A stretch of 64,000 nt of DNA. Source: Escherichia phage PNJ1902. The stretch's first letter is position 1; every line of letters starts with the position of its first letter. Position numbers and translations under genes: made by a program. A model generated the notes under the pieces. The model did no database searches. It was not told where the DNA came from and saw only the letters and a program-made list of their open reading frames with translations. Positions 20,246-38,635 of the stretch are shown here, piece after piece. The stretch lies in the sequence record OK254197.1; one strand, 5' to 3'.

Positions 20246-20468
20246 ATATTCATAAATTAGGGAACAGCGAGCCGATTACGCTGAGTGCAGAATCCCAACC
20301 GGAGCGCATTGAATAGAGTCGGTGGGTTAGTTGTAAAACTAGTACACAGGGGGCGGCAATCCCGGTTAGTGGCTAGAACGTGTAAAATGAGGCGTCTGAA
20401 ACCTCTCCCCTAAACTCTTCTCTAATTTATAAATAGTGGGGTGTGGAAATCACTTATGTAGTAACACT

Positions 20469-20540
20469 GCCGTCCTAGTATAATTGGTATTATCAAGCCG
20501 TAACTGGTGGAAGATGTAGGTTCGAATCCTACGGTCGGTA
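20469..20540 (+). tRNA. Possible tRNA or tRNA-like element (anticodon not resolved)
   Basis: T-arm gtagg-ttcgaat-cctac with acceptor-like pairing; anticodon arm could not be folded by hand. Confidence 0.25.
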
Positions 20541-21042
20541 AGAACTGGATAACTGGTGCTTTTAATGTAAAAGCTTCCGAGGTTAGTTGCGCACTGCCTA
20601 AACCACGCGGTAGTTGGTTCCAGACTAGCCAACCAGTCTGCTGAATAGTTTTATTACGATTTAACTATGTCCAGACTAAAGAAGAACTTTAGAAGGTATT
20701 CTAGGATAGTGAAGTTCTTTCTCCATATCGGAGTAGTTTTTCAAGCTATCCACAAAGTGGGAAATGCTGACATGAGAGATGTCACTAATGGTGCACAATA
20801 GCACAGGTAATTCGCGATAATTCCTGTTGAGTAGCAGCAAAAGGCGGGAAGTCATGACCCCAAGCCTAACCGAGTCCTCAATATACCGCAGGACATAACC
20901 ACTAAGTCACCCTGACTTAAACTGGAAAATAATAGACGTTACCGTATTTTGTCTTGAAATACTTAATGAGTGAGACTTATGACTCTCCCGGTATCGTCTG
21001 TATTTTTAAGAGTTTTTACGAGAGTTCTTAAAAATACTTAAA

Positions 21043-21151: not shown

Positions 21152-22099
21152 ATGTTTGCTACTAAAAACACTAAAGAACTGACTTATGAGCAAAAATTAA
21201 TGCGTAATATCAAACGTTGGGGTATTGGGGCTGCAGTTGGTTTGGTAGGTTTAGTTCTGGCTCTTAACTCTTACACTGTTGTTCAAGACGGTACTGTTAA
21301 AACCCAGACTTTCCTGGGTAAAGTTGACCCTAGCCCAGTATTACCCGGCTTTCATATTGTAAATCCTTTTGCTTCTTTCGATACTTTTAGTACTAAAGAT
21401 ATTGCTCTAAAATTAGATAAACTTCAGGTTCCTAGTCAGGATAAGTTTAAATCCACTGTTGACCTGACTGTTATGTTGCAGTTTGATGGTTCTAAGGCAC
21501 CGATTAACCGTATTAATGCAGGTACTCAGGATCAAGCATTAGACAAATATGTAACTGAAAAATTACTGTCTACTATTCGTGAGTTTGGTAAGTCTGTACC
21601 TAAAGCACAAGATTTATTTGATGCTAAAATTCAGGCTCAATTGCAAACCGCAATTCAACAGGAAGTTGAAGAGTATGCACGCCCATATGGTTACACAGTT
21701 AAGCAGGTGTTTCTTCAGGATATTACTTTGCCACCGGTAATCATGGAACAGGTACAGAATACCAAAGTTCGTGAAGAGCAAGTTAACGCTGCGAAAGCTG
21801 AACTTGCCCGCGTTGAACAGGAAGCACAGCAAAAAGTTAAACAAGCAGAAGCAGATCGTGAAGCTCGCAACAACCAAGCTATTGCTAATGAACGTGACGC
21901 AGATGCTAAACTGTACGCAGCTAAGAAAGAAGCTGAAGCTAACGCCGCACTGCAACGTACCATTACTCCTGAGATGATTCGTTGGAAACAACTGGAAGTT
22001 GAAATGATTCGTGCTCAGAAGTATCAAGGTGGTGTACCTCAGACTGTAGTTGGCACTGGCTATGATGGTCAAATGATTATGGATATGCGTAACAAGTAA
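21152..22099 (+). CDS. SPFH/band-7 (prohibitin/HflC-like) membrane protein
   Basis: N-terminal TM helix, SPFH-like core and C-terminal charged coiled coil (EAQQKVKQAEADREARN...). Confidence 0.5.
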   Translation: MFATKNTKELTYEQKLMRNIKRWGIGAAVGLVGLVLALNSYTVVQDGTVKTQTFLGKVDPSPVLPGFHIVNPFASFDTFSTKDIALKLDKLQVPSQDKFKSTVDLTVMLQFDGSKAPINRINAGTQDQALDKYVTEKLLSTIREFGKSVPKAQDLFDAKIQAQLQTAIQQEVEEYARPYGYTVKQVFLQDITLPPVIMEQVQNTKVREEQVNAAKAELARVEQEAQQKVKQAEADREARNNQAIANERDADAKLYAAKKEAEANAALQRTITPEMIRWKQLEVEMIRAQKYQGGVPQTVVGTGYDGQMIMDMRNK

Positions 22100-22124
22100 T
22101 AGTTACACGTAATCTTCGAACTAA

Positions 22125-22155
22125 GCCCGCGTTTTCTCCGAGAGCGCGGGCTTTT
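22125..22155 (+). terminator. Rho-independent terminator
   Basis: agcccgcg...cgcgggct + TTTT. Confidence 0.55.
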
Positions 22156-22183
22156 CTGTATTTAAGGCAAAAGAAAAAGCCCC

Positions 22184-22208
22184 TAAGTCTTTCGACTAGG
22201 GGCTTTAC
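22184..22208. terminator. Bidirectional terminator hairpin
   Basis: aaaaagcccctaagtctttcgactaggggcttt; A/T runs on both sides. Confidence 0.5.
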
Positions 22209-22219
22209 TGTTTGGTTCT

Positions 22220-22414
22220 TTAGAACCATATACTCTTGTTACAGCAACCACCCATACGGGAGGCCAATCTTGACTGAAAATCTACTCTAGGGGGCAGGAT
22301 AAGAGTAGGCTTAAAGGCAAACGGATTGAACGCCGGTATTTGCGTAAACATTGCTGGAGAGCAACAACGTGCTACAGGCATTGGGCAGCACGAAACAGAT
22401 TTTCTGCAACACAT
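22220..22414 (-). CDS. Hypothetical Cys-rich small protein
   Basis: ORF track; AGGAGG RBS 5 nt upstream of ATG on minus strand; 10 Cys in 64 aa. Confidence 0.4.
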   Translation of the reverse strand: MCCRKSVSCCPMPVARCCSPAMFTQIPAFNPFAFKPTLILPPRVDFQSRLASRMGGCCNKSIWF

Positions 22415-22423
22415 AATTCCTCC

Positions 22424-22840
22424 TTAGGAGTTATTACCACCATTTTGAGCTTTTGCAACTTGGCTTTGGCAGAAGCTATTAAACTTACCCATAAGTGATA
22501 CAAGCTGCTTCCCATCCTCTGTCTTTGCGAAGTCTTCGAAAAGGGCTAGTACTGCCTGTCCTTCCGCAGAAACCTGCGGTTGTTGGGTTTGTTGCTGAAC
22601 TTGCTGCTGCGGCATCTGTTGCTGCATTTGTTGGGGCATTTGCGACTGCCCGCTCATTTGCTGCATCATTTGCATAGGACTCACACTTCCAGGGTTTTGC
22701 TGGAGTTGTTGCTGCATCTGTTGCGCTTCTGCTAAACGCTGTTGCAATTGTTGTAAGTAGGGGTTATCCAGACCCGGAATGGGCTGCTGGGAGCCCATAC
22801 TTTGATTAAGTCCGTTATTTACAAAACCATATTTACTCAT
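22424..22840 (-). CDS. Gln-rich low-complexity protein
   Basis: ORF track; long Q/M-rich repeats. Confidence 0.45.
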   Translation of the reverse strand: MSKYGFVNNGLNQSMGSQQPIPGLDNPYLQQLQQRLAEAQQMQQQLQQNPGSVSPMQMMQQMSGQSQMPQQMQQQMPQQQVQQQTQQPQVSAEGQAVLALFEDFAKTEDGKQLVSLMGKFNSFCQSQVAKAQNGGNNS

Positions 22841-22861
22841 AATGGGCTCCTCCCCTTAATA

Positions 22862-23848
22862 TTAAGCCGGCAGTTTAGCCTGCAGACCAGCCAGAGTCTG
22901 AGTGATAGCACCAAGACTTAAAGCGATTTGATTAATTACCTGACCGTTAGCACCACTACCCGCAGCGATTGCTTCACGTAGGCGACATGCGTCTAACTCG
23001 TCCTGGATACGTGCAGTAGTTACACCAGCGATCGCAGTCTGAAGTTCACAGCAACATTCAGCGATCTGACGTTCCAGAGAGTTCTGGTTAGCACACATCT
23101 GAGCCTGAACAGCGGCAAACTGGTTATTAGTTTGTAAAGTCTGCTGGAAAGCGATCTGTGCAGAATCAAACTTATCTTGTGCACGAGCTATCTGGTTAGC
23201 TGCGAAAGATTGATCAATCTGGCGAGAAAGATCGAACTGACCCTGAATAACGTTGCGAGTTTCCTGGCAGATCTGATTAGACAGATTAGCACCTGTACCA
23301 TAGATCGTAGTTAGTACAGACTGAGTATCACGGCTCTGGTTTTGGGATGTCTGGCTAAAACCATTGTTAACTGCGCTTAAAACAGCCCCAGTACCCTGGT
23401 TAGCTTCTGTACGAGTAGTGTTAATAGCTGCTAGAATACTAGCGGTATCTTGATTCTGAAGTACTGCATCAACTGCGCTACCATCACCAACTACACCACG
23501 TCCACCGAATCCACCGAAACCACCGAATCCGCCTGTTAATAGAGCACCGATTAGGATAGCTCCGAATAGTCCCATACCTTCACCACCGAAAGCACCTGCG
23601 TTTGCTGGGTAACCACCTAGTAGGCCAGGGAAGCCACTAGTGAATACGTTTACTGGTTCTTGCATTTTATGTTTTCCATGTTTATGACAATGTTCATCAT
23701 CGTCATCTTCTTCATCATCATGTTCACGATGTTTTTCTTCGTAGGCTCTGACCTTCTCCCACTTTTTCTTATCTGATTCCTCGTGACGGTGCAGTTCTGC
23801 TGCAACGCTAGCGACGGTCTCAGGACTCTTAGCTACTTCTTCTGTCAT
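22862..23848 (-). CDS. Hypothetical protein with His/acidic N-terminus, Gly-rich hydrophobic segment and Q/N-rich coiled-coil region
   Basis: ORF track; upstream divergent promoter-like TTGACA-17-TAAAGT on minus strand. Confidence 0.5.
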   Translation of the reverse strand: MTEEVAKSPETVASVAAELHRHEESDKKKWEKVRAYEEKHREHDDEEDDDDEHCHKHGKHKMQEPVNVFTSGFPGLLGGYPANAGAFGGEGMGLFGAILIGALLTGGFGGFGGFGGRGVVGDGSAVDAVLQNQDTASILAAINTTRTEANQGTGAVLSAVNNGFSQTSQNQSRDTQSVLTTIYGTGANLSNQICQETRNVIQGQFDLSRQIDQSFAANQIARAQDKFDSAQIAFQQTLQTNNQFAAVQAQMCANQNSLERQIAECCCELQTAIAGVTTARIQDELDACRLREAIAAGSGANGQVINQIALSLGAITQTLAGLQAKLPA

Positions 23849-24055
23849 TTTTTAACACCTCCTAGTATATAGAAAATGTGTGTCTCTTTGATCACTCATC
23901 CATAACATATACTTTACACTACCCCAACAAAAATGTCAAGGGGTCTTTAAAAATTGCCCCCGGATTTTTAGTGGGGTCACAAATTTTGGTCCTCACCACT
24001 TATCTGCTACCCTTAAGTGCCCTATGATTTTCCTCTAAAAAGTTAAAAATTTTGA

Positions 24056-24084
24056 TTGCTTGAATGCTAAATTCTCTGTATAAT
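24056..24084 (+). promoter_or_regulatory. sigma70-type early promoter (TTGCTT-17-TATAAT)
   Basis: Read from sequence. Confidence 0.55.
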
Positions 24085-24749: not shown

Positions 24750-24827
24750 GGTTCTCAAGCTCATATGGTATGAGCACCCGGCTCATAACCGGAAGGTACG
24801 TAGGTTCGAATCCTCGGGGAGCCACCA
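24750..24827 (+). tRNA. tRNA with CAU anticodon (Met or Ile2)
   Basis: Acceptor ggttctc/gggagcc, D-arm gctc...gagc, anticodon loop ctcataa; T-stem partly mismatched. Confidence 0.5.
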
Positions 24828-25043: not shown

Positions 25044-25229
25044 ATGTCCAAGTTTCAAGAACTCAAGCAAGAGCTAGAAGAATGTGCCTGCCCTGAGTGT
25101 AGGGGAATTGGTGAAAGTTCTGATGCAGAAGCAGGAGATACTTTTTGCAATATCTGGGTTTGCCCAAATTGCAGTGGTACAGGTATTAATCCTAACTGTG
25201 GTATTTCCCTAGATATTGAACGAGGATAA
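25044..25229 (+). CDS. Small zinc-ribbon protein (CPECRG...CPNCSG)
   Basis: ORF track; two CxxC pairs. Confidence 0.4.
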   Translation: MSKFQELKQELEECACPECRGIGESSDAEAGDTFCNIWVCPNCSGTGINPNCGISLDIERG

Positions 25230-30482: not shown

Positions 30483-30711
30483 GATACATCTATGGCTCAA
30501 AGTGTAACGGTGCTATTTGATGCTCTTAGTAAGACTTCCCCGACATGCGTTCGGGAGTAAGCTGCTAAGGCTAGGGTAGAAGAGTTTCGGAGAGCCGCCA
30601 CAATTGAAAATTCGTACTCGTCTTGAGCTGCGTGCAATAGGAGATAACTTGATTAGTATTCTAGAACATGCTAATTGAGGAAGGTTTCGCTAACCCTGCG
30701 AGTTTTCAATT

Positions 30712-30788
30712 GTGGCTATATCATAATTGGTTAATGATCCTGATTGTGAATCAGGCCTATGTGGATTCGAATTCCACTAGCCACCCCA
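30712..30788 (+). tRNA. tRNA-His (anticodon GUG)
   Basis: Acceptor gtggcta/tagccac, anticodon stem cctga/tcagg, loop ttgtgaa, T-arm gtgga-ttcgaat-tccac, CCA. Confidence 0.7.
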
Positions 30789-30813
30789 AATTAACTTAAA
30801 TAGGAAATAAAAT

Positions 30814-31008
30814 ATGGCTGATTTCTGCAAACAATGCTCCATTGATATGTGGGGCAGAGATACTGGTGATCTTTCTGGTTTGATTACAGAAGCTGAAGTT
30901 AAAGAAGGCTACGGTGCTGTTGTGATTTGCGAGGGATGCGGAGTTATTCGAGTAGATCATGAAGGCAAACGTTTGGAAGAATCTGAGCCAACAACAATTT
31001 TTCCGTAG
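30814..31008 (+). CDS. Small Cys-rich (zinc-binding-like) protein
   Basis: ORF track; CKQC...CEGC. Confidence 0.45.
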   Translation: MADFCKQCSIDMWGRDTGDLSGLITEAEVKEGYGAVVICEGCGVIRVDHEGKRLEESEPTTIFP

Positions 31009-31020
31009 AATAAAAATTAT

Positions 31021-31096
31021 TGGGATGTAGATCAATTGGCAGATCGTCGGCCTCTGACTCCGAAGGTTCCACGTTCGATCCGTGGCATCCCAGCCA
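31021..31096 (+). tRNA. tRNA-Gln (anticodon CUG)
   Basis: Acceptor tgggatg/catccca, loop ctctgac, T-arm ccacg-ttcgatc-cgtgg, CCA. Confidence 0.6.
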
Positions 31097-31102
31097 AATA
31101 AT

Positions 31103-31178
31103 TGGAGAGTAGTGTAACGGTTAGCACAACGGCCTTTGACTCCGTTAATGGTAGGTTCGATTCCTCCTTCTCCAGCCA
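31103..31178 (+). tRNA. tRNA-Gln (anticodon UUG)
   Basis: Acceptor tggagag/ttctcca, D-arm gtgt...caca, loop ctttgac, CCA. Confidence 0.55.
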
Positions 31179-31186
31179 AACAATAA

Positions 31187-31262
31187 GCGGTTAAGCACAC
31201 GGGTTGTGCCGCAGGCCTTCCAAGCCTCGCTGAGTAGGGTTCGATTCCCTCTAGCCGCTCCA
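31187..31262 (+). tRNA. tRNA-Gly (anticodon UCC)
   Basis: Acceptor gcggtta/tagccgc, loop cttccaa, T-arm taggg-ttcgatt-ccctc, CCA. Confidence 0.55.
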
Positions 31263-31278
31263 ACTTTAAGGAAACGTT

Positions 31279-31533
31279 ATGCACGTTTTTGAATTTCGTA
31301 ATAAAAGTACCGATAAACGAGTTATTGTTATTGGGGAAACATACCGAGCATACGAACAAACTGACGGCTCTGTTATCCTGAATGATGAGAAAGGAGGTTT
31401 TAGCTTTTATCCAGAAGAACCTTATGAAGAGTTTCGAAAACAATTTAACCTAGACTGGAGAAAGCATTTAAACACTGTTGCTTCATCTGTAATACTGCCA
31501 ACTACCAGTACTGAGTCCTCTAATGGCCGATAA
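31279..31533 (+). CDS. Hypothetical protein
   Basis: ORF track. Confidence 0.5.
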   Translation: MHVFEFRNKSTDKRVIVIGETYRAYEQTDGSVILNDEKGGFSFYPEEPYEEFRKQFNLDWRKHLNTVASSVILPTTSTESSNGR

Positions 31534-31687
31534 CCTAAAAGTAAAGATCGATAAACAAAAGAAACGTGTAGAAGTAGAGATTGGTGAAGAACGTGTAGCC
31601 TTCACCTTTGAATTTCTACAACAAATGGCAATGACAGTTATGACTGACAAGTCTCCTATTATTGAAAAAGAAATCCCGTTGGAATAA
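31523..31687 (+). CDS. Hypothetical 54-aa protein
   Basis: ATG overlapping previous stop; below ORF-track cutoff. Confidence 0.3.
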   Translation: MADNLKVKIDKQKKRVEVEIGEERVAFTFEFLQQMAMTVMTDKSPIIEKEIPLE

Positions 31688-31695
31688 CGGGTTCT

Positions 31696-31782
31696 GCTGG
31701 GTTGGCAGAATGGTTGAATGCACCTGATTTGTAATCAGGAGGAGTAATCCCGTTGCAGGTTCGAATCCTGTGCCCAGCACCA
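31696..31782 (+). tRNA. tRNA-Thr-like (anticodon UGU) with long hairpinned variable arm
   Basis: Acceptor gctgggt/gcccagc, anticodon stem cctga/tcagg, loop tttgtaa, T-arm gcagg-ttcgaat-cctgt, CCA. Confidence 0.55.
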
Positions 31783-31797
31783 ATTTAAGGATTAGTA

Positions 31798-31964
31798 TGT
31801 TTAAACTCCTAGTAGTTATCTGGTATAGCCAATCAAACAGAGCTAATACCTCTCACGTTATAGACTTTAATACTAAAAATGAAGCTGAAGAAGCATATGC
31901 TAATTTAATACAACGTAATAAAGAATCTCGTAGTATAGTTTATGAAGTGACTAAACTTTATTAA
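31798..31964 (+). CDS. Hypothetical 55-aa protein
   Basis: ATG 31798 after AAGGA; track ORF 31770 start would overlap tRNA. Confidence 0.35.
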
Positions 31965-31973
31965 AAATTCATT

Positions 31974-32001
31974 TGCCTTCTCTCTTATTTCTTGTTATAA
32001 T
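31974..32001 (+). promoter_or_regulatory. sigma70-type promoter (TTGCCT-16-TATAAT)
   Basis: Read from sequence. Confidence 0.5.
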
Positions 32002-32031
32002 ATTTATATAAATTAATGAGAGGGAAACCAA

Positions 32032-32325
32032 ATGAAACGTTATCTTTCTGTTATGTTCCAAACTGGTGGTCAACGCTATACTTATGAATTTCCTAGCTCT
32101 TGGAAGATCAAAGAAGGTGATCAAGTAGTAGTGTTAACACCGCGCGAGGGTTTCAAGGTAGTAACGGTTAAGCAAGTATTTCCAAAAGATCGTGAACCAG
32201 CTAAAGGCATTCGCTATAAGATGATTCATGGTGTAGTTCGTCAAGTACCACGAGCGGAAGTCGAAATCAAAGTAGATAAAGATGGTAAACTTAAATATAC
32301 CTCTTGCTTAGACGAGTTGCTATAA
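32032..32325 (+). CDS. Hypothetical protein
   Basis: ORF track; GAGGGAAACCAAATG. Confidence 0.5.
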   Translation: MKRYLSVMFQTGGQRYTYEFPSSWKIKEGDQVVVLTPREGFKVVTVKQVFPKDREPAKGIRYKMIHGVVRQVPRAEVEIKVDKDGKLKYTSCLDELL

Positions 32326-32531
32326 TGAGAATTACTTTCACAGAAAAGATTATGGGTAATGGTGTTATGATCATTACCGCATGGGATGGTAATCAGTGGT
32401 GTAGTGTTTCAGGTATTAAGCCTGAAGAACAAACACTAGAAAATATCTCAAAGATTAAGCGAAGAATGGCAGAACGTGCACGACTTCCAGGTGCGCCTAG
32501 AAATGGTAAACGTTCTGCAATTAAATATTAA
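32325..32531 (+). CDS. Hypothetical protein
   Basis: ATG 32325 overlapping previous stop. Confidence 0.4.
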   Translation: MRITFTEKIMGNGVMIITAWDGNQWCSVSGIKPEEQTLENISKIKRRMAERARLPGAPRNGKRSAIKY

Positions 32532-32532
32532 T

Positions 32533-32609
32533 GCTTCGGTAGCTTAGCGATCTAAAGCACTCGGCTGATAACCGAGAGATCGGGGGTTTAAATCCCTCCC
32601 GGAGTACCA
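32533..32609 (+). tRNA. tRNA-Ile (anticodon GAU)
   Basis: D-arm gctt...aagc, anticodon stem ctcgg/ccgag, loop ctgataa, T-arm ggggg-tttaaat-ccctc, CCA. Confidence 0.65.
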
Positions 32610-32705
32610 AATTTAGGAATTAAGACTATGCGTCCAGGAAAGTTTAAAAAAGCTAATTGGTCTAAAGAGTATAAAGAATACTTACTTAGTCTAGTAAAAC
32701 ATAAC

Positions 32706-32781
32706 AGTTAGTTGGCAGAGTGGTTATGCACCTCCTTCATACGGAGCGACTACAGTGGTTCAAATCCACTACTAACTACCA
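32706..32781 (+). tRNA. tRNA with CAU anticodon (Met/fMet/Ile2)
   Basis: Acceptor agttagt/actaact, loop ttcatac, T-arm agtgg-ttcaaat-ccact, CCA. Confidence 0.6.
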
Positions 32782-32818
32782 TTAAAATAGCTAGAGATAG
32801 CTAAATTTAGGAGCAGCT

Positions 32819-33013
32819 ATGTTAACAATTAAAATAATGTCAGCCAAGAATGGTGAACATATCCATACGGGCAAAAGCGTAAGCTTTAATCCTAGAAATA
32901 AGAGATTGGCTATAGTTGGAGTAGATCAAGCCATCTTTTTAAAAGAAGATGAAGTAGCATACGTCATGAACCAAACTGGTAAGACAGTTTCCGTATACTA
33001 TGGAAAAGTATAA
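32819..33013 (+). CDS. Hypothetical small protein
   Basis: ORF track; AGGAGCAGCTATG. Confidence 0.45.
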   Translation: MLTIKIMSAKNGEHIHTGKSVSFNPRNKRLAIVGVDQAIFLKEDEVAYVMNQTGKTVSVYYGKV

Positions 33014-33055
33014 AGAATAAAGAGCTGAGCCAAATTCTAACATCGGGGAGATCTA

Positions 33056-33424
33056 ATGAAAGCATATCAAAATCTTAAATCTGGCGTAATTAACCTTGTT
33101 CATGAAAATCAGATTATTCAGCTATACTCCGACAATGGTGAACTTAAACAGAAAGTTCTAGTTGAAGATCTAGAAGGTATCACACCACAATTCGATCCCG
33201 AAGCCTTCCGTGAAGTCAAAGTGGAAGTCGCCCCTCAAATCGAAGGTGGTCAGCACCTAAATGTCAATGTGTTAAGCCGTGATCAGCTTTTGGATGCGCA
33301 GAAACATCCTGAAAAATATCCTCAGTTGACCATCCGTGTTTCCGGGTACGCTGTACGTTTTAATGCACTGACTCGTGAACAGCAGAACGACGTTATTAGT
33401 CGTACATTTACTCAGGCGATGTAA
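33056..33424 (+). CDS. grcA: Autonomous glycyl-radical cofactor (GrcA/YfiD-like)
   Basis: C-terminal half [11 protein letters not shown]...[37 protein letters not shown] closely matches the E. coli YfiD/GrcA sequence as I recall it, including the RVSGY glycyl-radical motif. Confidence 0.8.
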
Positions 33425-33505
33425 TGGGGTTTGGATACGATTTCTACCAGCTACGCAAGGTAGTCGAGCAAACTCCATTTATCTCCCAAGTTTTAGGAGA
33501 AATGT

Positions 33506-33811
33506 GTGGATCGAGCATTAAGACGCCATCACCGGCAACGTGTGAAGAACAACCGCAAGAAGTATTGGACAGTCTTTCCACATGAAGAAAGCCCTAAGCG
33601 GTTAGGTATTGTCACTACTACTCCTTGCATCTGTTCTTGTTGGATGTGTGGGAACCCTCGCAAATACTATAAGAATAGTAAAGCAGGCATGAAAACCTCG
33701 GAGATCCGGAAAATGGAAGCGATGATTGCTGACATCACCTATACTGGTGGTATTTCAAATGATGAATTTGATGGCTTCGTGGCGTTCGAAGATGAACGCC
33801 CCGATCTGTAA
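33506..33811 (+). CDS. Hypothetical basic Cys-containing protein
   Basis: ORF track (GTG start after AGGAGAAA). Confidence 0.4.
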   Translation: MDRALRRHHRQRVKNNRKKYWTVFPHEESPKRLGIVTTTPCICSCWMCGNPRKYYKNSKAGMKTSEIRKMEAMIADITYTGGISNDEFDGFVAFEDERPDL

Positions 33812-33825
33812 TTAATAACAAACCC

Positions 33826-33866
33826 CAGCTATTGAATAAGTAGTCTGGGGTTTTTCTGTATAAAGG
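33826..33866 (+). terminator. Rho-independent terminator
   Basis: aaaccccag...ctggggttttt. Confidence 0.6.
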
Positions 33867-33932
33867 TACATAATATATGTATAATAAAATTCATCCACAT
33901 TAGGTTAATTTAAAAGACTTAATGGAGGTAAT

Positions 33933-34280
33933 ATGAGCCGTACTTACCGTAAACAATCTGGTGATCAGTGGTGGAAGTCTAAAGAACAATTCTCTCAAGA
34001 ATATTCTTTCCTCAAAGAAAATGGCTACTGGATTCGTGTTATTTATGCCAAATCTTGGGATGACATCAAGAAAGAAATGAAGGAAGCAACCATTCGTAAT
34101 GAGAAAAAGGATGGTTATAACTGGAATTCTATTAGTAAGAATGTTAAGTGGCATTCTAATAAAATGGTTCGTCAAGGGAATCGTCAAGAACTCCACCGCG
34201 TGATGAAAGATCCAGAAAATTATGACTATAATCGCGATCATGACATGCGTAAGCGTGGATTATGGTGGTGCTATGACTAA
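33933..34280 (+). CDS. Hypothetical protein
   Basis: ORF track; GGAGG RBS. Confidence 0.5.
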   Translation: MSRTYRKQSGDQWWKSKEQFSQEYSFLKENGYWIRVIYAKSWDDIKKEMKEATIRNEKKDGYNWNSISKNVKWHSNKMVRQGNRQELHRVMKDPENYDYNRDHDMRKRGLWWCYD

Positions 34281-34297
34281 ATTCTGAAATAATTCAT

Positions 34298-34326
34298 TTG
34301 CTAAACCTCTCTTTTCTTGCTATAAT
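34298..34326 (+). promoter_or_regulatory. sigma70-type early promoter (TTGCTA-17-TATAAT)
   Basis: Read from sequence. Confidence 0.55.
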
Positions 34327-34356
34327 ATGTTTATAAATTGATGAGAGAGGTTTGAA

Positions 34357-34638
34357 ATGAAAACTCGTCTAGACTGTGCTGTTCATGTTCTTGAACATGA
34401 TGTTGCAGGAACCTGTATGTCTTACCACGAAGCAGGTCGTTTAATTAAAGAACGTGTGGCAGATGTGTGCGGATTGAAGATTACTGCTGAGGAAGCTGAT
34501 GATCTTTTAGGCCAAGCACTGGAGAAAACCGAAATGTTTCTCTGCGATTCTTGTTCTTGGTGGTGTGAAGCTCACGAACGTTCTTTCAACGATTATGATG
34601 TATGTCGTGACTGTAGTGGGGAGGATGAAGATGAATAA
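34357..34638 (+). CDS. Small Cys-rich protein (CDSCSWWC...CRDCSG)
   Basis: ORF track. Confidence 0.5.
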   Translation: MKTRLDCAVHVLEHDVAGTCMSYHEAGRLIKERVADVCGLKITAEEADDLLGQALEKTEMFLCDSCSWWCEAHERSFNDYDVCRDCSGEDEDE

Positions 34639-34930
34639 GTTTATTATTGCACTGGTGATCTCCGCAGTTAGTTTAGGTTCTCTAGCGTCTACCAAAGTTT
34701 CTATGAAAAATGGCAGTGTTAAAGTCCAACAGAACGGCATTATTACCGAGTATGGTAAAGTTCGTGATGTTAAGGAACGTAATGGTAAAGTAGAAATCTA
34801 TACTAATAAAAACTTCTCTACTCCAGCCGTTACTATTAGCAAACGCGGTGAAATAACCACTCAACGTACTAATAGCTCCAGTTCTTTTACTTGTCGTTAT
34901 GATTGCGACTTTGAAGGTGAAGATGAATAA
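34631..34930 (+). CDS. Secreted/periplasmic small protein with signal peptide
   Basis: MNKFIIALVISAVSLGSLAS N-terminus; ATG 34631 overlapping previous stop. Confidence 0.45.
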   Translation: MNKFIIALVISAVSLGSLASTKVSMKNGSVKVQQNGIITEYGKVRDVKERNGKVEIYTNKNFSTPAVTISKRGEITTQRTNSSSSFTCRYDCDFEGEDE

Positions 34931-35318
34931 TTTAGACCCTAGAATTAAATTTGCAATTACAGAAATCCAAGATCAAATTGATGAGGATTTCACTGTTTGG
35001 TCAAGGTCTGGTAATGGAGAATATTGCCAGCTTTATAGTATGAAAATGGGTATCTCAATTGAGCTTAATATCAACTCTGAAGGTAGAGTAGAAGCCCGAC
35101 CCATGTTCAGTGTTCCAGGCTTCTCTGGATTTGTTGCAGGTATAAAATTGTGTCTACCAAATAACCATCTTCATCGAGTTATTTGTCAGCTAGAGACTAT
35201 TAAGCATTTCTTACCAGAAGGTAACATTAATGACTACTACCATGAAGTTGTAGCAGCTCATATGATGAAAGAAACTAAACGTAGGAGAGAAGAACGTGAA
35301 AAGACTAAACATCAATAG
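34923..35318 (+). CDS. Hypothetical protein
   Basis: In-frame part of track ORF 34899..35318. Confidence 0.45.
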   Translation: MNNLDPRIKFAITEIQDQIDEDFTVWSRSGNGEYCQLYSMKMGISIELNINSEGRVEARPMFSVPGFSGFVAGIKLCLPNNHLHRVICQLETIKHFLPEGNINDYYHEVVAAHMMKETKRRREEREKTKHQ

Positions 35319-35592
35319 CACGGTGCAGATTCCAGCAACTAAGGATGTTTTAACATTCCTACGTAGTGAGAATACCCAGTTTTGGCATGACTATATTCAG
35401 GAAAATAAAAATAATCCAGATGTAGTTGCCTTTGCCAAAAAACGTATCGAAGAATATAAAGATCCAGAGATTAAAGATGGGATGATTACTATGCAATTGT
35501 GGGTAGCCATGAATACGTTTGGACCCACTATGAGTCTAGGAGTTACTCCACTGTTTACTAATATTCTAATTAATGAAAAGGATCTGAAATGA
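35296..35592 (+). CDS. Hypothetical protein
   Basis: ORF track. Confidence 0.4.
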   Translation: MKRLNINSTVQIPATKDVLTFLRSENTQFWHDYIQENKNNPDVVAFAKKRIEEYKDPEIKDGMITMQLWVAMNTFGPTMSLGVTPLFTNILINEKDLK

Positions 35593-35873
35593 TTATCTCT
35601 CCATTTGCTCTTTGGTTCGTCATTGGATCTATAGTAGCTATTTACAGCTTGGTTGATGATCTGTATATTTCTAAGAATAAAGATGTAATATTATACGTTA
35701 TACATAAAACTCGACCGTTAGATCTGTCTCCTCTTGATGATAAAACATTACTCAGATGTGCTAGATCTATGATATTTATTGTGGATATTCTTCTAGGCCC
35801 AACATCTGTGTTTTTCTTTTATAGAAAAACTCGTAATATGAAAAAATTTAAAGCTGAAATGCAGAATACCTAA
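35589..35873 (+). CDS. Hypothetical membrane protein
   Basis: ORF track; hydrophobic N-terminus. Confidence 0.45.
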   Translation: MIISPFALWFVIGSIVAIYSLVDDLYISKNKDVILYVIHKTRPLDLSPLDDKTLLRCARSMIFIVDILLGPTSVFFFYRKTRNMKKFKAEMQNT

Positions 35874-35947
35874 AGAACTCGCGTAGGACCGAGTTGCGTC
35901 ACCTGCAACTGTTACGGATAAGGGAGTCGTGCCCCTTAGTGCGGTAA

Positions 35948-36328
35948 GTGGTGAGGTGGCTGCTAGCCCTAACTGGAGATAATATGACTATATTACTAAT
36001 TCTTGTTACAACCTGGTTTTTAATCAGTGCTGGATATGCGATAGCTATTATTAGACATTTGGATGAATATTCTGCTGAATGGTTTGTTAAGTATCTACGT
36101 ATTGATGATCAAGAACAGAAGTTTAAAGATGAAAAGCAGAAAAAAGCAGTAAATAATATGACAGCCAAAGAATACTTGTTCTACATGCGTATTGTAGGGT
36201 TCTTTGGACTATTAGTTGCTGGCCCAATTGGTTCCACCATTGCTCCATATAAGGAAACAGTTGCTGACATCAAATTGTGGAGAAATGCAGGGGTACTGCA
36301 CAAAGCTAGAAAAACTAATATTACATAA
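35948..36328 (+). CDS. Hypothetical membrane protein
   Basis: ORF track; two hydrophobic segments. Confidence 0.45.
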   Translation: MVRWLLALTGDNMTILLILVTTWFLISAGYAIAIIRHLDEYSAEWFVKYLRIDDQEQKFKDEKQKKAVNNMTAKEYLFYMRIVGFFGLLVAGPIGSTIAPYKETVADIKLWRNAGVLHKARKTNIT

Positions 36329-36372
36329 GATTGACACTAAGTCAACTTACTAGCAAAAGCAAATAATGACAA

Positions 36373-36412
36373 AGCCCAGCCTGCACTTTTGCGACTGGGC
36401 TATTTTTATAAT
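36373..36412 (+). terminator. Rho-independent terminator
   Basis: cccagcc...ctggg + TTTTT. Confidence 0.5.
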
Positions 36413-36422
36413 AAAATTTTAG

Positions 36423-36451
36423 TTGCTTAGATGCCCAAACTTTTGTATAAT
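36423..36451 (+). promoter_or_regulatory. sigma70-type early promoter (TTGCTT-17-TATAAT)
   Basis: Read from sequence. Confidence 0.55.
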
Positions 36452-36482
36452 ATGTTTATAGATTGAGGCAAGAGGATTAAAT

Positions 36483-37181
36483 ATGAGGATTATTTCTAAG
36501 TTCGCCGATGTGTATGATTTGCAGAACAGTTTGTTCGACCCAGATCGTGTGTGGGAACGTAAAACTGAGGAGTTACTGGTTAAAGTAACTGATGATGCAG
36601 AAAAGAACATTGTGCATACTCGCCAGGTATTTCGTGATGGTTCGCTATCTTTCCATGGTGATTTCGAATATTTTGTAAACCCACTATTTGTTGCAGGTGA
36701 AGTTTACTGGTTACACGAGCTGTACTGCTGGCATCCAGCATTTAGCTTCAAAACGTTTAATCTCGACACTATGTTCGATAAAATGGAAGAGATGGGATTG
36801 CATGCTCGCTCTTACTTAATGGATAAGAGTCGTGGAGATGTTCGTGAAACAATGCGTGATTTGCTCGCTGAAGCAAAACCTAAAGCAGAACGTATCTTAT
36901 CCGAACTGCGTGTACCGATTGCATATGTGAAAGGTATTAAAAAGAACGATAACGATGATGTTCGTAACTTCGTGATTCAGACTAACATTCGTTTCCATCA
37001 GTCAGGTATTCCGTGGCAGGAAATTGAAAGTAACTTATACCGTTTACACCAAGTTCTCGAACAGTATATCTTCGGTGTACTAGGAACTGGTGAGCCTGAT
37101 ATGATTAAAGTATCAGATAAAGACAGGTTAGCAGCGCATGGATTTGATACAAAAACTTCTTTCAGGAATATGGCACGGTAA
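36483..37181 (+). CDS. Hypothetical protein
   Basis: ORF track; AGAGGATTAAATATG. Confidence 0.55.
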   Translation: MRIISKFADVYDLQNSLFDPDRVWERKTEELLVKVTDDAEKNIVHTRQVFRDGSLSFHGDFEYFVNPLFVAGEVYWLHELYCWHPAFSFKTFNLDTMFDKMEEMGLHARSYLMDKSRGDVRETMRDLLAEAKPKAERILSELRVPIAYVKGIKKNDNDDVRNFVIQTNIRFHQSGIPWQEIESNLYRLHQVLEQYIFGVLGTGEPDMIKVSDKDRLAAHGFDTKTSFRNMAR

Positions 37182-37587
37182 GTGGTATATCCTGGGAGCA
37201 GGTCTAGCGATAGGCATCGGGTTCGGTGCTTATCACTTAGTAGATAGAGTGGAGACTTTAGCGGGAGATCTTGCAGTAGCTACTAAAAAGATCTCTTCTC
37301 TAGAGACTTCCCTTAATAAGGTGAAAGCTGAAAGCGAACTTCGTGAGACTAGAATGAATCAGTATTTCACAATGAATAATATTTCGCAAGCAGATCTAGA
37401 CAAAAAGATTAAGCAGCTAGATAAAGCTCTTAGTCGTCAAGATGTTATCGCTGCAAAGCCTGGATTGGTAACATTAATTGCTAAAAAGCAGAATAAAGAG
37501 TTCGAGGAAAGATTAGCATGTTTAACTGGAAACTTGGAGTACTGCTCGCAGCCACAATCACAATCACAGGCTGTGCAGAAGAAATAA
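37138..37587 (+). CDS. Membrane-anchored coiled-coil protein
   Basis: ORF track; N-terminal TM then coiled coil. Confidence 0.4.
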   Translation: MDLIQKLLSGIWHGKWYILGAGLAIGIGFGAYHLVDRVETLAGDLAVATKKISSLETSLNKVKAESELRETRMNQYFTMNNISQADLDKKIKQLDKALSRQDVIAAKPGLVTLIAKKQNKEFEERLACLTGNLEYCSQPQSQSQAVQKK

Positions 37588-37871
37588 AACCAGAGCCATC
37601 TCATGAGTTAAAGCAAGCTCATGTAGACTGGCCTAAAGGACTTCAACCTTGTAGCTTTGACTTTAAGTTTGAAAAGAAATTAGCTACAAATGGAGAAGAT
37701 GGCGTAGTAGTTGTTATACCATACAAAGATTGGAATGCAAAAGCAAAATGTGAGGAAGCAGTTTACTCTTACATTTCACGACTGACTGGTATGGTCTGCT
37801 TCTATCGTCAAGATTTACAAGAAAAACGTTGCTTAGTTTACTATCCACCCATTACAAATAGGAAAGATTAA
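37518..37871 (+). CDS. Putative lipoprotein (signal peptide + lipobox ITGC)
   Basis: MFNWKLGVLLAATITITGC... Confidence 0.4.
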   Translation: MFNWKLGVLLAATITITGCAEEIKPEPSHELKQAHVDWPKGLQPCSFDFKFEKKLATNGEDGVVVVIPYKDWNAKAKCEEAVYSYISRLTGMVCFYRQDLQEKRCLVYYPPITNRKD

Positions 37872-38623: not shown

Positions 38624-38635
38624 TCAAGGATCGCT

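What the first reader, a model, noticed from the sequence alone, without database searches (positions are those of the whole stretch)
22220..23848. Opposite-strand trio of low-complexity proteins (Cys-rich, Gln-rich, and a His/acidic plus Gly-rich plus Q/N-rich protein) inside the early region
These three minus-strand ORFs sit between a bidirectional terminator and a divergent promoter within an otherwise plus-strand block. The 328-aa protein combines a His/Asp/Glu-rich metal-binding-like N-terminus, a GFGGFGGFGG glycine zipper-like hydrophobic segment and Q/N-rich coiled coils. The 138-aa protein is extremely Gln/Met-rich. Such composition suggests membrane-active, condensate-forming or prion-like proteins, which are unusual in phages.
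Basis: seen in the sequence. Interest (0 to 1): 0.6.

Follow-up and report, generated by a model that had tools for sequence, protein, structure and literature searches.

The report
Conserved accessory membrane/cysteine gene trio of T5
The three odd-looking reverse-strand genes are real, conserved but dispensable genes of T5-like phages (T5p075-077) that form a self-contained add-on operon, probably encoding a membrane-anchored, cysteine-linked protein complex of unknown role. The low-complexity tracts that drew attention are mostly variable spacers, not prion-like domains.

Summary
Three minus-strand ORFs (328, 138 and 64 aa) sit at the stated coordinates, each with a strong Shine-Dalgarno site. 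A sigma-70-type promoter lies upstream and a hairpin terminator downstream.

The window is a T5-like phage. The trio is T5p075/076/077, annotated as hypothetical with promoter P12 and terminator ter1.

- **The genes are real.** dN/dS is 0.15, 0.19 and 0.33. The three co-occur in 222/222/221 phage records. Diverged trios exist in other phage lineages.
- **The trio is accessory.** About half of T5-like genomes lack exactly this cassette, with different deletion boundaries. The laboratory deletion strains T5 st0 and T5Mos are viable.
- **ORF328 belongs to a large uncharacterised phage family.** It has a Gly-rich membrane segment, long helices and an invariant CCC motif. It has the highest optimal-codon use in the window.
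- **ORF138** has two conserved ends joined by a variable P/Q/M-rich spacer.
- **ORF64** is a basic peptide whose conserved feature is vicinal Cys-Cys pairs.

No Pfam, NCBIfam, PADLOC, PDB or fold match was found.

Best reading: a moron-type early operon that makes a membrane-anchored, Cys-bridged complex, linked by metal or disulfide. Its role is probably conditional and envelope-related. The prion or condensate reading is not supported. Function remains untested.

The parts
23911..23939 (-). Sigma-70-type promoter of the trio (TTGACA, 17 nt, TAAAGT); equivalent to promoter P12 of T5, BF23 and phage 5
   Evidence: Pattern scan, 10 of 12 matches. Promoter P12 is annotated at the homologous place in AJ604531, AY734508 and AJ604530. 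Function here was not tested.
22862..23848 (-). ORF328 (T5p075 homologue; phrog_8119): N-terminal helix, variable His/acidic tract, Gly-rich membrane segment, long helical domain with invariant CCC
   Evidence: ORF. SD AGGAGG at 23858-23863. dN/dS 0.15. Found in 222 phage records. Family alignments A1-A3. AF2 pLDDT 66, with helices at 12-45, 134-169 and 175-324. Fop 0.684, rank 1 of 48.
23666..23731 (-). His/Asp/Glu-rich tract of ORF328 (aa ~40-61); length and composition vary among relatives
   Evidence: Sequence. Period-3/9/12/15 repeats at 23693-23726. In alignment A1 the tract is expanded (HHYHHHHHEHYEED...) or absent in relatives. Similar His-rich N-tails occur in other lineages (P0038, P0051, P0054, P0072, P0082).
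23501..23578 (-). Gly-zipper-like hydrophobic segment of ORF328 (aa 91-116, GMGLFGAILIGALLTGGFGGFGGFGG): the predicted membrane anchor
   Evidence: Kyte-Doolittle maximum 1.72. G91, G93, G107, G110 and G112 are invariant in A1. The segment is conserved family-wide. The GFG x3 comes from a 9-nt repeat at 23501-23530.
23048..23056 (-). Invariant Cys-Cys-Cys motif of ORF328 (C265-C267; TGT TGC TGT) within the conserved QIAECCCE context
   Evidence: Invariant in A1. Present in 99 of 147 family representatives. The consensus QxAxCCCE is seen in A2 and A3.
22424..22840 (-). ORF138 (T5p076 homologue; phrog_7894): conserved N-terminal helix, variable P/Q/M-rich spacer (nt 22574-22720), conserved C-terminal ~45-aa domain with one invariant Cys
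   Evidence: ORF. SD GGGGAGGAG at 22847-22855. dN/dS 0.19. Found in 222 records. Alignment A6. Spacer statistics. 12-nt repeat at 22604-22642.
22220..22414 (-). ORF64 (T5p077 homologue): basic, Pro/Cys-rich peptide with four vicinal Cys pairs; usually left unannotated in public genomes
   Evidence: ORF. SD AAGGAGG at 22419-22425 overlaps the ORF138 stop. Full length in 220 of 221 records and mostly labelled 'none'. Positional orthologues carrying CC pairs occur in L005, L006, L007 and L062. dN/dS 0.33 with low dS.
22167..22206 (-). Intrinsic terminator of the trio (hairpin 22176-22206 plus U-run); equivalent to 'ter1' of T5
   Evidence: -21.8 kcal/mol, z -4.9. ter1 is annotated at the homologous place.
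22123..22163 (+). Convergent terminator of the SPFH gene; not part of the cassette (retained in trio-less IME178). It contains the site homologous to a T5 'major single-chain interruption'.
   Evidence: Scan. Fold -24.1 kcal/mol. Retained in L018. The nick maps to 22143/22144.

Best explanation
The region is a self-contained accessory early operon of T5-like phages, a 'moron' with its own sigma-70 promoter and its own terminator.

**Shown**
- The three genes are real and under purifying selection.
- They are always inherited together.
- They are dispensable and are repeatedly lost.
- They are conserved as a trio in distant phage lineages.

**Inferred mechanism**
1. ORF328 is made in large amounts and inserts into the cytoplasmic membrane through its Gly-zipper-like segment, which probably also drives oligomerisation.
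2. Its long helical domain carries the invariant CCC cluster. Family-wide charge bias and cysteine content suggest this domain faces the cytoplasm.
3. That domain recruits the two signal-less partners. One is ORF138, through its conserved Cys-containing C-terminal domain, held on a flexible P/Q/M spacer. The other is the vicinal-cysteine peptide ORF64.
4. The three are joined through shared thiol chemistry, either bound soft metal or disulfide.

**Likely role.** The resulting membrane-bound scaffold most likely serves a conditional, envelope-directed purpose. Candidates are exclusion of competing phages, protection or tuning of the infected cell's membrane or its lysis, and metal handling. It is not a core replication or lysis function.
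For: **Operon anatomy.** Promoter, three strong SD sites, 9-22 nt intercistronic gaps and a terminator. P12 and ter1 are annotated in T5, BF23 and phage 5.

**Real genes.** dN/dS is 0.15, 0.19 and 0.33. The three co-occur in 222/222/221 phage records.

**Diverged trios in other lineages.** They occur in L005 (Pseudomonas phage RSP, an UNVERIFIED record), in the ~110-kb contigs L006 and L007, and in the 24.8-kb lambdoid-lysis contig L062.

**Accessory status.**
- IME178 lacks window 22162-24071.
- SB13 lacks 22249-24004 but keeps the last 29 nt of ORF64.
- Bas33 also lacks the trio.
- The T5 st0 deletion covers the trio.
- T5Mos (deletion 30661-38625) is viable (PMC11464382). By the coordinates its deletion should remove P12 and the 5' part of T5p075. 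That is an inference from coordinates.

**Membrane anchor.** The Gly-rich hydrophobic segment is conserved.

**Cys theme.** Conserved features are the CCC motif, C252, the single Cys of ORF138 and the CC pairs of ORF64. Gram-positive relatives carry a Cys-rich tail (…CGCGCNG) fused to the CCC protein, where T5 has a separate Cys peptide.

**Orientation.** K/R counts are 0.27 upstream and 0.83 downstream of the segment, with 46 members biased downstream against 8 upstream.

**Abundance.** Fop is 0.684, the highest of 48 ORFs.

**Structure.** Long helices were predicted with moderate confidence.
Against: - No direct evidence of expression, localisation, interaction or metal binding was found.
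- The only T5-like transcriptome/proteome found is for Bas33, which lacks the trio.
- Topology is unresolved for the T5 version. Its 90-aa N-terminal domain has about 12 K/R, which makes translocation doubtful. The C-domain could therefore be periplasmic, where the signal-less partners could not reach it.
- The AF2 model is only moderate (pLDDT 66, pTM 0.26) and is a monomer. No fold or sequence relative of known function exists.
- The fusion/fission argument linking ORF64 to the Gram-positive Cys tails rests on composition, not on demonstrated homology.
- The biological role is a guess from architecture and context.
Confidence: 0.45

Rival explanations
1. Soft-metal or metalloid-binding module. 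The CCC cluster and the vicinal Cys pairs, helped in T5-likes by the His-rich tract of ORF328 and the Met-rich spacer of ORF138, would bind Cu(I), Zn, Cd, As(III) or Hg-type ions at the membrane. This could sequester metal or deliver it during infection.
For: - Vicinal Cys pairs are the only conserved feature of the ORF64 family.
- CCC is invariant.
- His-rich tracts ahead of the membrane segment recur in at least five separate lineages.
- The Markadamsvirinae spacers are up to 22% Met.
- From established knowledge, vicinal Cys pairs bind soft metals in ArsD, MerT and MerA, and CC/CxC motifs do so in metallothioneins.
Against: - The His and Met tracts are not conserved in distant orthologues.
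- There is no homology to any metal-binding family.
- No transporter or regulator lies nearby.
- Nothing was measured.
Confidence: 0.2
2. Lysis-associated or spanin-like device. ORF328 would act as a membrane-anchored helical stalk like an i-spanin, and ORF64 as a small Pro/Cys-rich partner like an o-spanin, or the trio would regulate holin timing.
For: - Relatives lie next to lysis genes in several lineages. Examples are CHAP endolysin plus holin (L008), holin plus amidase (L009, L010), M15 peptidase (L011) and holin-lysozyme-Rz (L062).
- Endolysin-type genes lie upstream in at least 16 of 41 Clostridia loci.
- The layout of an N-terminal anchor, a long helix and cysteines, with a ~60-aa Pro-rich partner, superficially resembles Rz/Rz1.
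Against: - ORF64 has no signal peptide or lipobox.
- L062 already has a PF03245 Rz-type gene.
- Gram-positive hosts have no outer membrane to fuse.
- In T5-likes the trio has an early-type sigma-70 promoter, is not in the lysis cassette, is missing from half of the genomes and is deletable without loss of plaque formation.
- Lysis adjacency is also simply where accessory cargo sits in temperate phages.
Confidence: 0.1
3. Prion-like or condensate-forming proteins. The Q/N/M-rich tracts would drive phase separation or amyloid-like assembly in the infected cell.
For: ORF138 has 31 Q+N in its richest 60-aa window. ORF328's helical part is Q/N/A-rich. Clostridial cassettes containing the CCC family also encode Q-rich, Q/M/N-rich and R/G/S/Y-rich small proteins.
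Against: - The Q/M tract varies in length and composition and is P-rich rather than Q/M-rich in distant orthologues, whereas the flanking ordered segments are invariant.
- It arises from short in-frame repeats.
- The Clostridial Q/M/N-rich family is not homologous to ORF138 (hhalign probability 1.2%).
- ORF328 is predicted to be helical and membrane-anchored, not disordered.
Confidence: 0.07
4. Superinfection-exclusion or anti-defence moron with no need for a three-protein complex. ORF328 alone would block DNA entry of competing phages, or counteract a membrane-associated host defence.
For: - The cassette has moron architecture and is present or absent in otherwise colinear genomes.
- It has an early promoter.
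- It is membrane-anchored.
- It occupies accessory slots in temperate phages of unrelated hosts.
Against: - There is no similarity to known exclusion proteins or to PADLOC models.
- The strict co-inheritance of all three genes across distant lineages argues that they work together.
- There is no phenotype data.
Confidence: 0.15

Closest known systems
T5p075 / T5p076 / T5p077 of phage T5 (ORF 327aa/138aa/64aa of phage 5; ORF 326aa/138aa/64aa of BF23), with promoter P12 and terminator ter1
   Same: They are direct orthologues. ORF328 is 78.7% identical to T5 and about 97% to phage 5. ORF64 is 100% identical to T5. Order, strand, promoter and terminator are the same.
   Different: Nothing of substance differs. 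The public records call all three 'hypothetical protein', and no function is published in the searched literature.
Phage morons (autonomous promoter-gene-terminator insertions, as defined for lambdoid phages)
   Same: - It has its own promoter and terminator.
- It is transcribed against its neighbours.
- It is present or absent between genes that are adjacent in relatives.
- Its G+C is 0.46 against 0.39 for its neighbours.
- It is dispensable.
   Different: - It sits in a strictly lytic phage, so it cannot be a lysogenic-conversion gene here.
- The G+C difference comes from amino-acid composition; GC3 is 0.33, the same as the window mean.
- The SB13 remnant points to loss rather than recent gain.
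Two-component spanins (lambda Rz/Rz1)
   Same: There is a membrane-anchored protein with a long helical domain and cysteines, plus a ~60-aa Pro/Cys-rich partner encoded next to it. Relatives often lie near lysis genes.
   Different: - ORF64 has no lipoprotein signal.
- The trio is not in the T5 lysis cassette.
- It has an early promoter and is dispensable.
- It also occurs in Gram-positive phages.
- L062 has its own Rz-type gene.
Vicinal-cysteine metal binders (ArsD, MerT/MerA C-terminus, metallothioneins)
   Same: Repeated CC (and CGCGC in relatives) motifs are the conserved feature.
   Different: There is no sequence or fold relationship. Metal binding is untested.
Influenza haemagglutinin HA2 (class I fusion protein)
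   Same: A profile of the family gives weak hits in which GLFGAI… of the membrane segment aligns with the HA2 fusion peptide GLFGAI… and the following helix (E = 0.011).
   Different: - The E-value is at chance level.
- The single sequence does not hit HA2 at all.
- The segment is internal, not a cleavage-generated N-terminus.
- Heptad periodicity is weak.

This is treated as coincidence of composition.
PHROG families phrog_16490 and phrog_9288 (Gram-positive phage proteins of unknown function)
   Same: They share the architecture of a Gly-rich membrane segment, helices and QxAxCCCE. ORF328 hits both weakly (E 0.0025 and 0.0019), and the Clostridial CCC protein hits phrog_16490 at 8e-23. An HMM of the T5-type family retrieves them.
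   Different: - They lack the 90-aa N-terminal domain.
- They often carry the Cys-rich tail fused.
- They sit in a different, seven-gene colinear cassette.

Membership tests
Phage moron (autonomous accessory transcription unit) | Own promoter upstream of the insert | tested here: met
   TTGACA-17-TAAAGT at 23939..23911. Annotated as P12 in T5, BF23 and phage 5. Activity was not measured.
Phage moron (autonomous accessory transcription unit) | Own factor-independent terminator downstream | tested here: met
   Hairpin 22176-22206 plus U-run, -21.8 kcal/mol, z -4.9.
Phage moron (autonomous accessory transcription unit) | Lies between genes that are adjacent in related genomes | tested here: met
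   The SPFH and Toprim genes are 96 nt apart in IME178 and 287 nt apart in Bas33. SB13 has a different deletion boundary.
Phage moron (autonomous accessory transcription unit) | Nucleotide composition distinct from neighbours (sign of foreign origin) | tested here: inconclusive
   G+C is 0.46 against ~0.39. GC3 is 0.33, equal to the window mean, so the shift reflects amino-acid composition.
Two-component spanin (Rz/Rz1) | o-spanin is an outer-membrane lipoprotein with a signal peptide and lipobox Cys | tested here: not met
   ORF64 starts MCCRKSVSCC…, with no hydrophobic signal and no lipobox.
Two-component spanin (Rz/Rz1) | Encoded in the lysis cassette and needed for lysis | tested here: not met
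   It has an early-type promoter among tRNA genes. It lies within the T5 st0 deletion and is missing from about half of T5-likes.
Two-component spanin (Rz/Rz1) | i-spanin is type II (N-in/C-out) with a periplasmic coiled coil | tested here: inconclusive
   An N-terminal anchor plus long helices is predicted. However, the charge bias favours C-in and heptad periodicity is weak.
Prion-like (Q/N-rich) domain protein | Extended Q/N-rich low-complexity region | tested here: met
   ORF138 has 31 of 60 Q+N at aa 30-89.
Prion-like (Q/N-rich) domain protein | The tract is the conserved, functional part of the protein | tested here: not met
   The spacer is 31-57 aa (shorter in three unparsed orthologues), with Q 0.16-0.47. 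It is P-rich in distant orthologues, while the flanks are invariant.
Prion-like (Q/N-rich) domain protein | Self-templating aggregation | not testable with these tools
   This needs in-vivo or in-vitro aggregation assays.
Class I viral fusion protein (HA2-like) | Detectable sequence or fold relationship | tested here: not met
   Profile E = 0.011 only. The single sequence gives no HA2 hit. Foldseek against PDB and BFVD found nothing.
Known metal-binding Cys families (metallothionein, ArsD, MerT, HMA, CCG domain) | Match to the family profile | tested here: not met
   No Pfam or NCBIfam hit above noise for any of the three proteins.
Known metal-binding Cys families (metallothionein, ArsD, MerT, HMA, CCG domain) | Metal binding by the Cys motifs | not testable with these tools
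   This needs purified protein and metal analysis.
Known anti-phage defence or counter-defence proteins (PADLOC-DB) | Match to a model | tested here: not met
   No hit at E ≤ 0.1.
NfeD-type partner of SPFH proteins | NfeD domain and co-transcription with the SPFH gene | tested here: not met
   There is no NfeD hit. The trio is convergent to the SPFH gene, not co-transcribed with it. The SPFH gene persists without the trio.
PHROG phrog_8119 / phrog_7894 (unknown function) | Full-length profile match | tested here: met
   E = 1.7e-203 and 2.7e-80. ORF64 has no PHROG.

The most novel reading that the evidence does not exclude
The trio is the minimal Gram-negative form of a widespread, undescribed phage accessory system. 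Its core is a membrane-anchored 'CCC' helical protein and a vicinal-cysteine partner, which is either separate or fused. Together they would build a metal- or redox-linked protein layer on the host membrane. The system would be shared by lytic T5-like phages and by temperate phages of gut Clostridia. It would give a conditional advantage, for example against competing phages, membrane-targeting defences or metal stress.
Probability: 0.2. Interest if true: 0.65.

Novelty: new variant of a known kind. Interest (0 to 1): 0.4.

Why it matters
T5 is a model phage, yet this operon has been labelled 'hypothetical' for two decades. Its third gene is missing from most genome annotations, and its second carries a spurious 'cAMP-dependent protein kinase' label.

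The work shows the three genes form one conserved, co-inherited, dispensable module. Its core protein belongs to a large phage family with an invariant CCC motif. That turns an oddity of composition into a defined target.

Natural and laboratory trio-minus phages already exist (IME178, Bas33, T5 st0), so the function can be tested directly by competition assays.

If the Cys-cluster complex proves to bind metal, or to act on the membrane against competitors or defences, it would add a new type of phage accessory system shared across Gram-negative and Gram-positive hosts. If nothing is found, it remains an ordinary accessory gene set.

Tried and rejected
- **Profile libraries.** Pfam, NCBIfam, PADLOC and PHROGs gave only noise-level hits (Rifin, Granulin and similar) or PHROGs of unknown function.
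- **PDB sequence searches.** The single sequence and the profile gave chance-level hits only (F-box protein 4; HA2 at E 0.011). These were rejected as homology.
- **Structure.** AF2 with 17 sequences gave pLDDT 45. With 51 sequences it gave pLDDT 66, mostly long helices. Foldseek against PDB and BFVD found nothing, with best E about 4-7.
- **Foreign origin from G+C.** Rejected, because GC3 is normal.
- **Homology between ORF138 and the Q/M/N-rich small proteins next to Clostridial CCC genes.** Rejected by hhalign (probability 1.2%).
- **Canonical coiled coil.** Heptad signal is weak.
- **Non-coding RNA explanation for the highly conserved ORF64 DNA.** No Rfam match beyond terminator-like noise. 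Positional ORFs with CC pairs in four distant lineages favour coding.
- **Expression data.** The only T5-like RNA-seq/proteome found (Bas33, PMC13250531) is from a phage that lacks the trio.
- **Literature searches.** Searches for T5p075-077 and T5.077-079 found nothing.
- **Genome-contig scan.** The broad alignment A2 failed because it had no conserved stretch. The scan was repeated with the narrower alignment A4.
- **'cAMP-dependent protein kinase catalytic subunit' label on ORF138 homologues.** There is no kinase domain. The label was rejected as annotation carry-over.
Full report
**What the window is.** The 4 kb around the finding is 98.7% identical to Escherichia phage fp01. It matches more than 450 T5-like (Demerecviridae, Markadamsvirinae) records. 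The window also carries 21 tRNA genes on the plus strand. [quoted passage not shown] There they appear as T5p075/076/077 (ORF 327aa, 138aa and 64aa), with promoter P12 upstream and 'bidirectional terminator ter1' downstream. All three are labelled hypothetical. Full-text searches for these names found no paper.

**Check of the observation.**
- The ORFs are at 23848..22862, 22840..22424 and 22414..22220 on the minus strand.
- Composition matches the description. ORF138 is 27.5% Q and 8% M. ORF64 is 12.5% C and 12.5% P. ORF328 is A/G/Q-rich with a hydrophobic GLFGAILIGALLTGGFGGF core.
- Each ORF has a strong Shine-Dalgarno site: AGGAGG, GGGGAGGAG and AAGGAGG. Gaps between genes are 21 and 9 nt.
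- A TTGACA-17-TAAAGT promoter-like site lies at 23939..23911.
- Downstream are two convergent hairpin terminators, one for each strand (-21.8 and -24.1 kcal/mol, z about -4.9 and -4.5).
The only caveat is that heptad periodicity in the helical part of ORF328 is weak (46 of 500 shuffles match it).

**Are they genes?**
- Across ten T5-like loci dN/dS is 0.15 for ORF328, 0.19 for ORF138 and 0.33 for ORF64.
- tblastn finds ORF328 in 222 phage records, ORF138 in 222 and ORF64 in 221. The organism tallies are nearly identical. ORF64 is full length in 220 of the 221.
- ORF64 is usually not annotated at all. Its DNA also has a low dS of 0.13, so close relatives alone cannot prove coding.
- The stronger evidence comes from diverged versions of the operon. 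These occur in Pseudomonas phage RSP (an UNVERIFIED record), in two ~110-kb metagenomic contigs, and in a 24.8-kb contig with a lambda-type lysis cassette.
- Each keeps a 60-91-codon ORF in the third position. It starts MCC (or MSCNCGCGG) and carries further Cys-Cys pairs. One example is RCCPMPVPRCCG…GGCCGLI, against SCCPMPVARCC…GGCCNKS in the window.

**The trio is an accessory cassette.**
- Roughly half of the T5-like records that match the flanks lack it (213 of 452 cover at least 80% of the 3.8-kb query).
- IME178 lacks exactly window 22162-24071: terminator, three genes, promoter and about 130 nt upstream. Its SPFH and Toprim genes are left 96 nt apart.
- SB13 lacks 22249-24004 but retains the last 29 nt of ORF64 and both hairpins. 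Bas33 lacks the trio too. Different boundaries and a remnant indicate repeated loss.
- In T5 itself the whole trio lies inside the 8.2-kb st0 deletion.
- T5Mos (deletion 30661-38625) is viable (PMC11464382). By the coordinates its deletion should remove P12 and the 5' part of T5p075; that is an inference.
- The gene on the promoter side varies (Toprim, NadR/PnuC or others). The convergent SPFH gene is constant and persists without the trio.
- The higher G+C of the cassette (0.46 against 0.39) comes from amino-acid composition, because GC3 is ordinary.

**ORF328.**
- Homologues at 36-97% identity come only from T5-like-sized contigs.
- Alignment A1 shows:
  - a conserved N-terminal helix;
  - a His/acidic tract that expands, contracts or disappears;
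  - a conserved MQEPVNVF motif;
  - the Gly-rich hydrophobic segment, with five invariant Gly;
  - a helical region with invariant C265-C266-C267 and nearly invariant C252;
  - a highly conserved C-terminus, NGQVINQIAVSLGAITQTLAALQAKL.
- An HMM search of 1.8 billion representatives found 180 proteins at E ≤ 1e-3. Most are 180-370 aa.
- These begin with the Gly-rich segment and share QxAxCCCE (99 of 147 have CCC). Thirty end in a Cys-rich tail such as …CGCGCNG. Several independent lineages again have His-rich N-tails.
- None has a Pfam domain or a name.
- Across 77 members, K/R are scarcer before the segment (0.27) than after it (0.83), with 46 members biased downstream against 8 upstream. An acidic residue commonly precedes the segment. 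This favours an N-out/C-in orientation.
- C-in also fits the well-known avoidance of cysteine in exported proteins of Firmicutes (general knowledge). However, the charged 90-aa N-domain of the T5 form makes that topology uncertain.
- AF2 improved from pLDDT 45 with 17 sequences to 66 with 51 sequences. The better model has a confident helix at 12-45, a disordered 49-132, and helices at 134-169 and 175-324.
- Fold searches found nothing.
- ORF328 has the highest fraction of E. coli optimal codons of all 48 ORFs of at least 120 aa in the window (0.684 against a mean of 0.489, sd 0.081). The SPFH gene ranks fourth. This suggests an abundant, structural protein.

**ORF138.**
- Homologues are confined to the same phage lineages.
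- The conserved parts are an N-terminal helix (YLQQLQQRLxEAQxxQQQL) and a C-terminal ~45-aa domain (EGQAVLALFEEFAKTEDGKQLVSxMGKFNSFCQS) with an invariant Cys.
- The Q/M-rich stretch between them is a spacer of 31-57 aa in the parsed orthologues. Three more were too short to parse. Q ranges from 0.16 to 0.47, M from 0.03 to 0.22 and P from 0.09 to 0.24. In T5-likes it is built from a 12-nt repeat.
- The recurrent label 'cAMP-dependent protein kinase catalytic subunit' has no basis.

**ORF64.**
- It is a basic peptide (about +7) with no acidic residues in most orthologues, no signal peptide and no membrane segment.
- Its only conserved trait is two to five vicinal Cys pairs.
- Its Pro/Cys-rich make-up, and the CGCG motif of the L062 orthologue, resemble the tails fused to Gram-positive CCC proteins. 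This hints that ORF64 and ORF328 interact. It is an inference from composition.

**Wider context.**
- In gut and rumen Clostridia MAGs the CCC gene sits in a colinear seven-gene cassette. In order, the genes are:
  1. a 125-aa Cys/His protein;
  2. a Q-rich 185-aa protein;
  3. a 65-90-aa Q/M/N-rich protein;
  4. the CCC protein;
  5. a 155-aa Cys-containing protein (phrog_20016);
  6. an R/G/S/Y-rich protein;
  7. a 115-aa protein.
- The cassette typically lies after the tail-fibre and endolysin genes, and in some loci before an integrase.
- The Q/M/N-rich family is not homologous to ORF138.
- In L062 the trio is divergent from holin-lysozyme-Rz. These are the usual cargo slots of temperate phages.

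**Interpretation.**
- Shown: the trio is a real, co-inherited, dispensable, autonomously transcribed three-gene module. It is conserved across distant phages, and its core is a member of a large uncharacterised phage family.
- Inferred: ORF328 is membrane-anchored and oligomeric, and the three proteins are joined through their conserved cysteines. This would be by metal if the C-domain is cytoplasmic and by disulfide if it is periplasmic. The abundant complex would serve a conditional, envelope-related role.
- I put 0.45 on this overall picture and much less on any specific role.
The evidence for and against each is listed in the structured fields.
- The weak HA2 hits, where GLFGAI aligns with the influenza fusion peptide (E 0.011), are at chance level. 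The single sequence does not reproduce them.

**Novelty and verdict.**
- The ORFs themselves are long known as hypothetical.
- New here are the definition of the conserved features (CCC, CC pairs, anchor), the extent of the family, the trio's conservation outside Demerecviridae, and its moron-like gain/loss behaviour.
- It fits a known kind of element, a phage accessory moron, but carries protein families with no described counterpart. I therefore class it as a new variant of a known kind, with moderate interest (0.4).
- The mechanism is untested. Natural and laboratory trio-minus phages make it easy to test.

Noticed in passing
window 22143-22144 (inside hairpin 22123-22153): The site annotated in T5 and BF23 as a 'major DNA single-chain interruption' (one of the T5 genome nicks) maps here, inside the SPFH-gene terminator hairpin next to the trio. 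The GCGC|T context is conserved.
   Followed up: partly
window 24750-24827 (+): This sequence is 100% identical to the tRNA-Ile2 (anticodon CAT) annotated in phage 5, T5 and BF23. Neither ARAGORN nor the Rfam tRNA model at E ≤ 0.1 reported it, so the tRNA count of 21 is an undercount.
   Followed up: partly
window 20469-20540 (+), within ~20400-21042: Rfam finds a tRNA-like match (35.5 bits) that ARAGORN does not call. It lies in the stretch annotated in T5, BF23 and phage 5 as 'RNAX, stable RNA with unknown functions', upstream of tRNA-Arg.
   Followed up: no
window 21152-22099 (+): An SPFH/band-7 protein (Pfam E 2.5e-17) lies convergent to the trio. Public records label it variously 'lipoprotein' or 'membrane protease'. 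It ranks fourth of 48 in optimal-codon use and is retained in genomes that lack the trio. Its function in phage is unknown.
   Followed up: partly
window 22424-22840 and 22220-22414; many public T5-like genomes: There are annotation problems. ORF138 homologues are repeatedly labelled 'cAMP-dependent protein kinase catalytic subunit' without any kinase domain. ORF64 is left unannotated in most of the 221 records that contain it.
   Followed up: yes
loci L009, L010, L020-L060 (Clostridia MAG or prophage contigs): A colinear, wholly uncharacterised seven-gene cassette surrounds the CCC-family gene. It includes a 125-aa protein with a GDC…H motif (phrog_3754; 38 of 45 loci), Q-rich and Q/M/N-rich small proteins, a Cys-containing 155-aa protein (phrog_20016; 39 of 45) and an R/G/S/Y-rich protein. 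It usually lies just after the endolysin.
   Followed up: partly
window 25044-25229 (+): This 61-aa ORF has two CxxCxGxG motifs (CPECRGIG, CPNCSGTG) of the DnaJ-type zinc-finger kind. Some relatives label it 'antitermination protein Q'.
   Followed up: no
locus L005 (MK443266, 'Pseudomonas phage RSP', UNVERIFIED, 63 kb): It carries a diverged complete trio. ORF328's C-terminal half is 59.5% identical, and the third ORF is MCCNQPVPQCC…. It is not clear whether this record is truly a Pseudomonas phage.
   Followed up: no
window 23693-23726, 23501-23530, 22604-22642: All three low-complexity tracts (acidic/His, GFG x3, Q/M) coincide with short in-frame tandem repeats of 3-15 nt. This is consistent with slippage-driven expansion and contraction.
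   Followed up: partly
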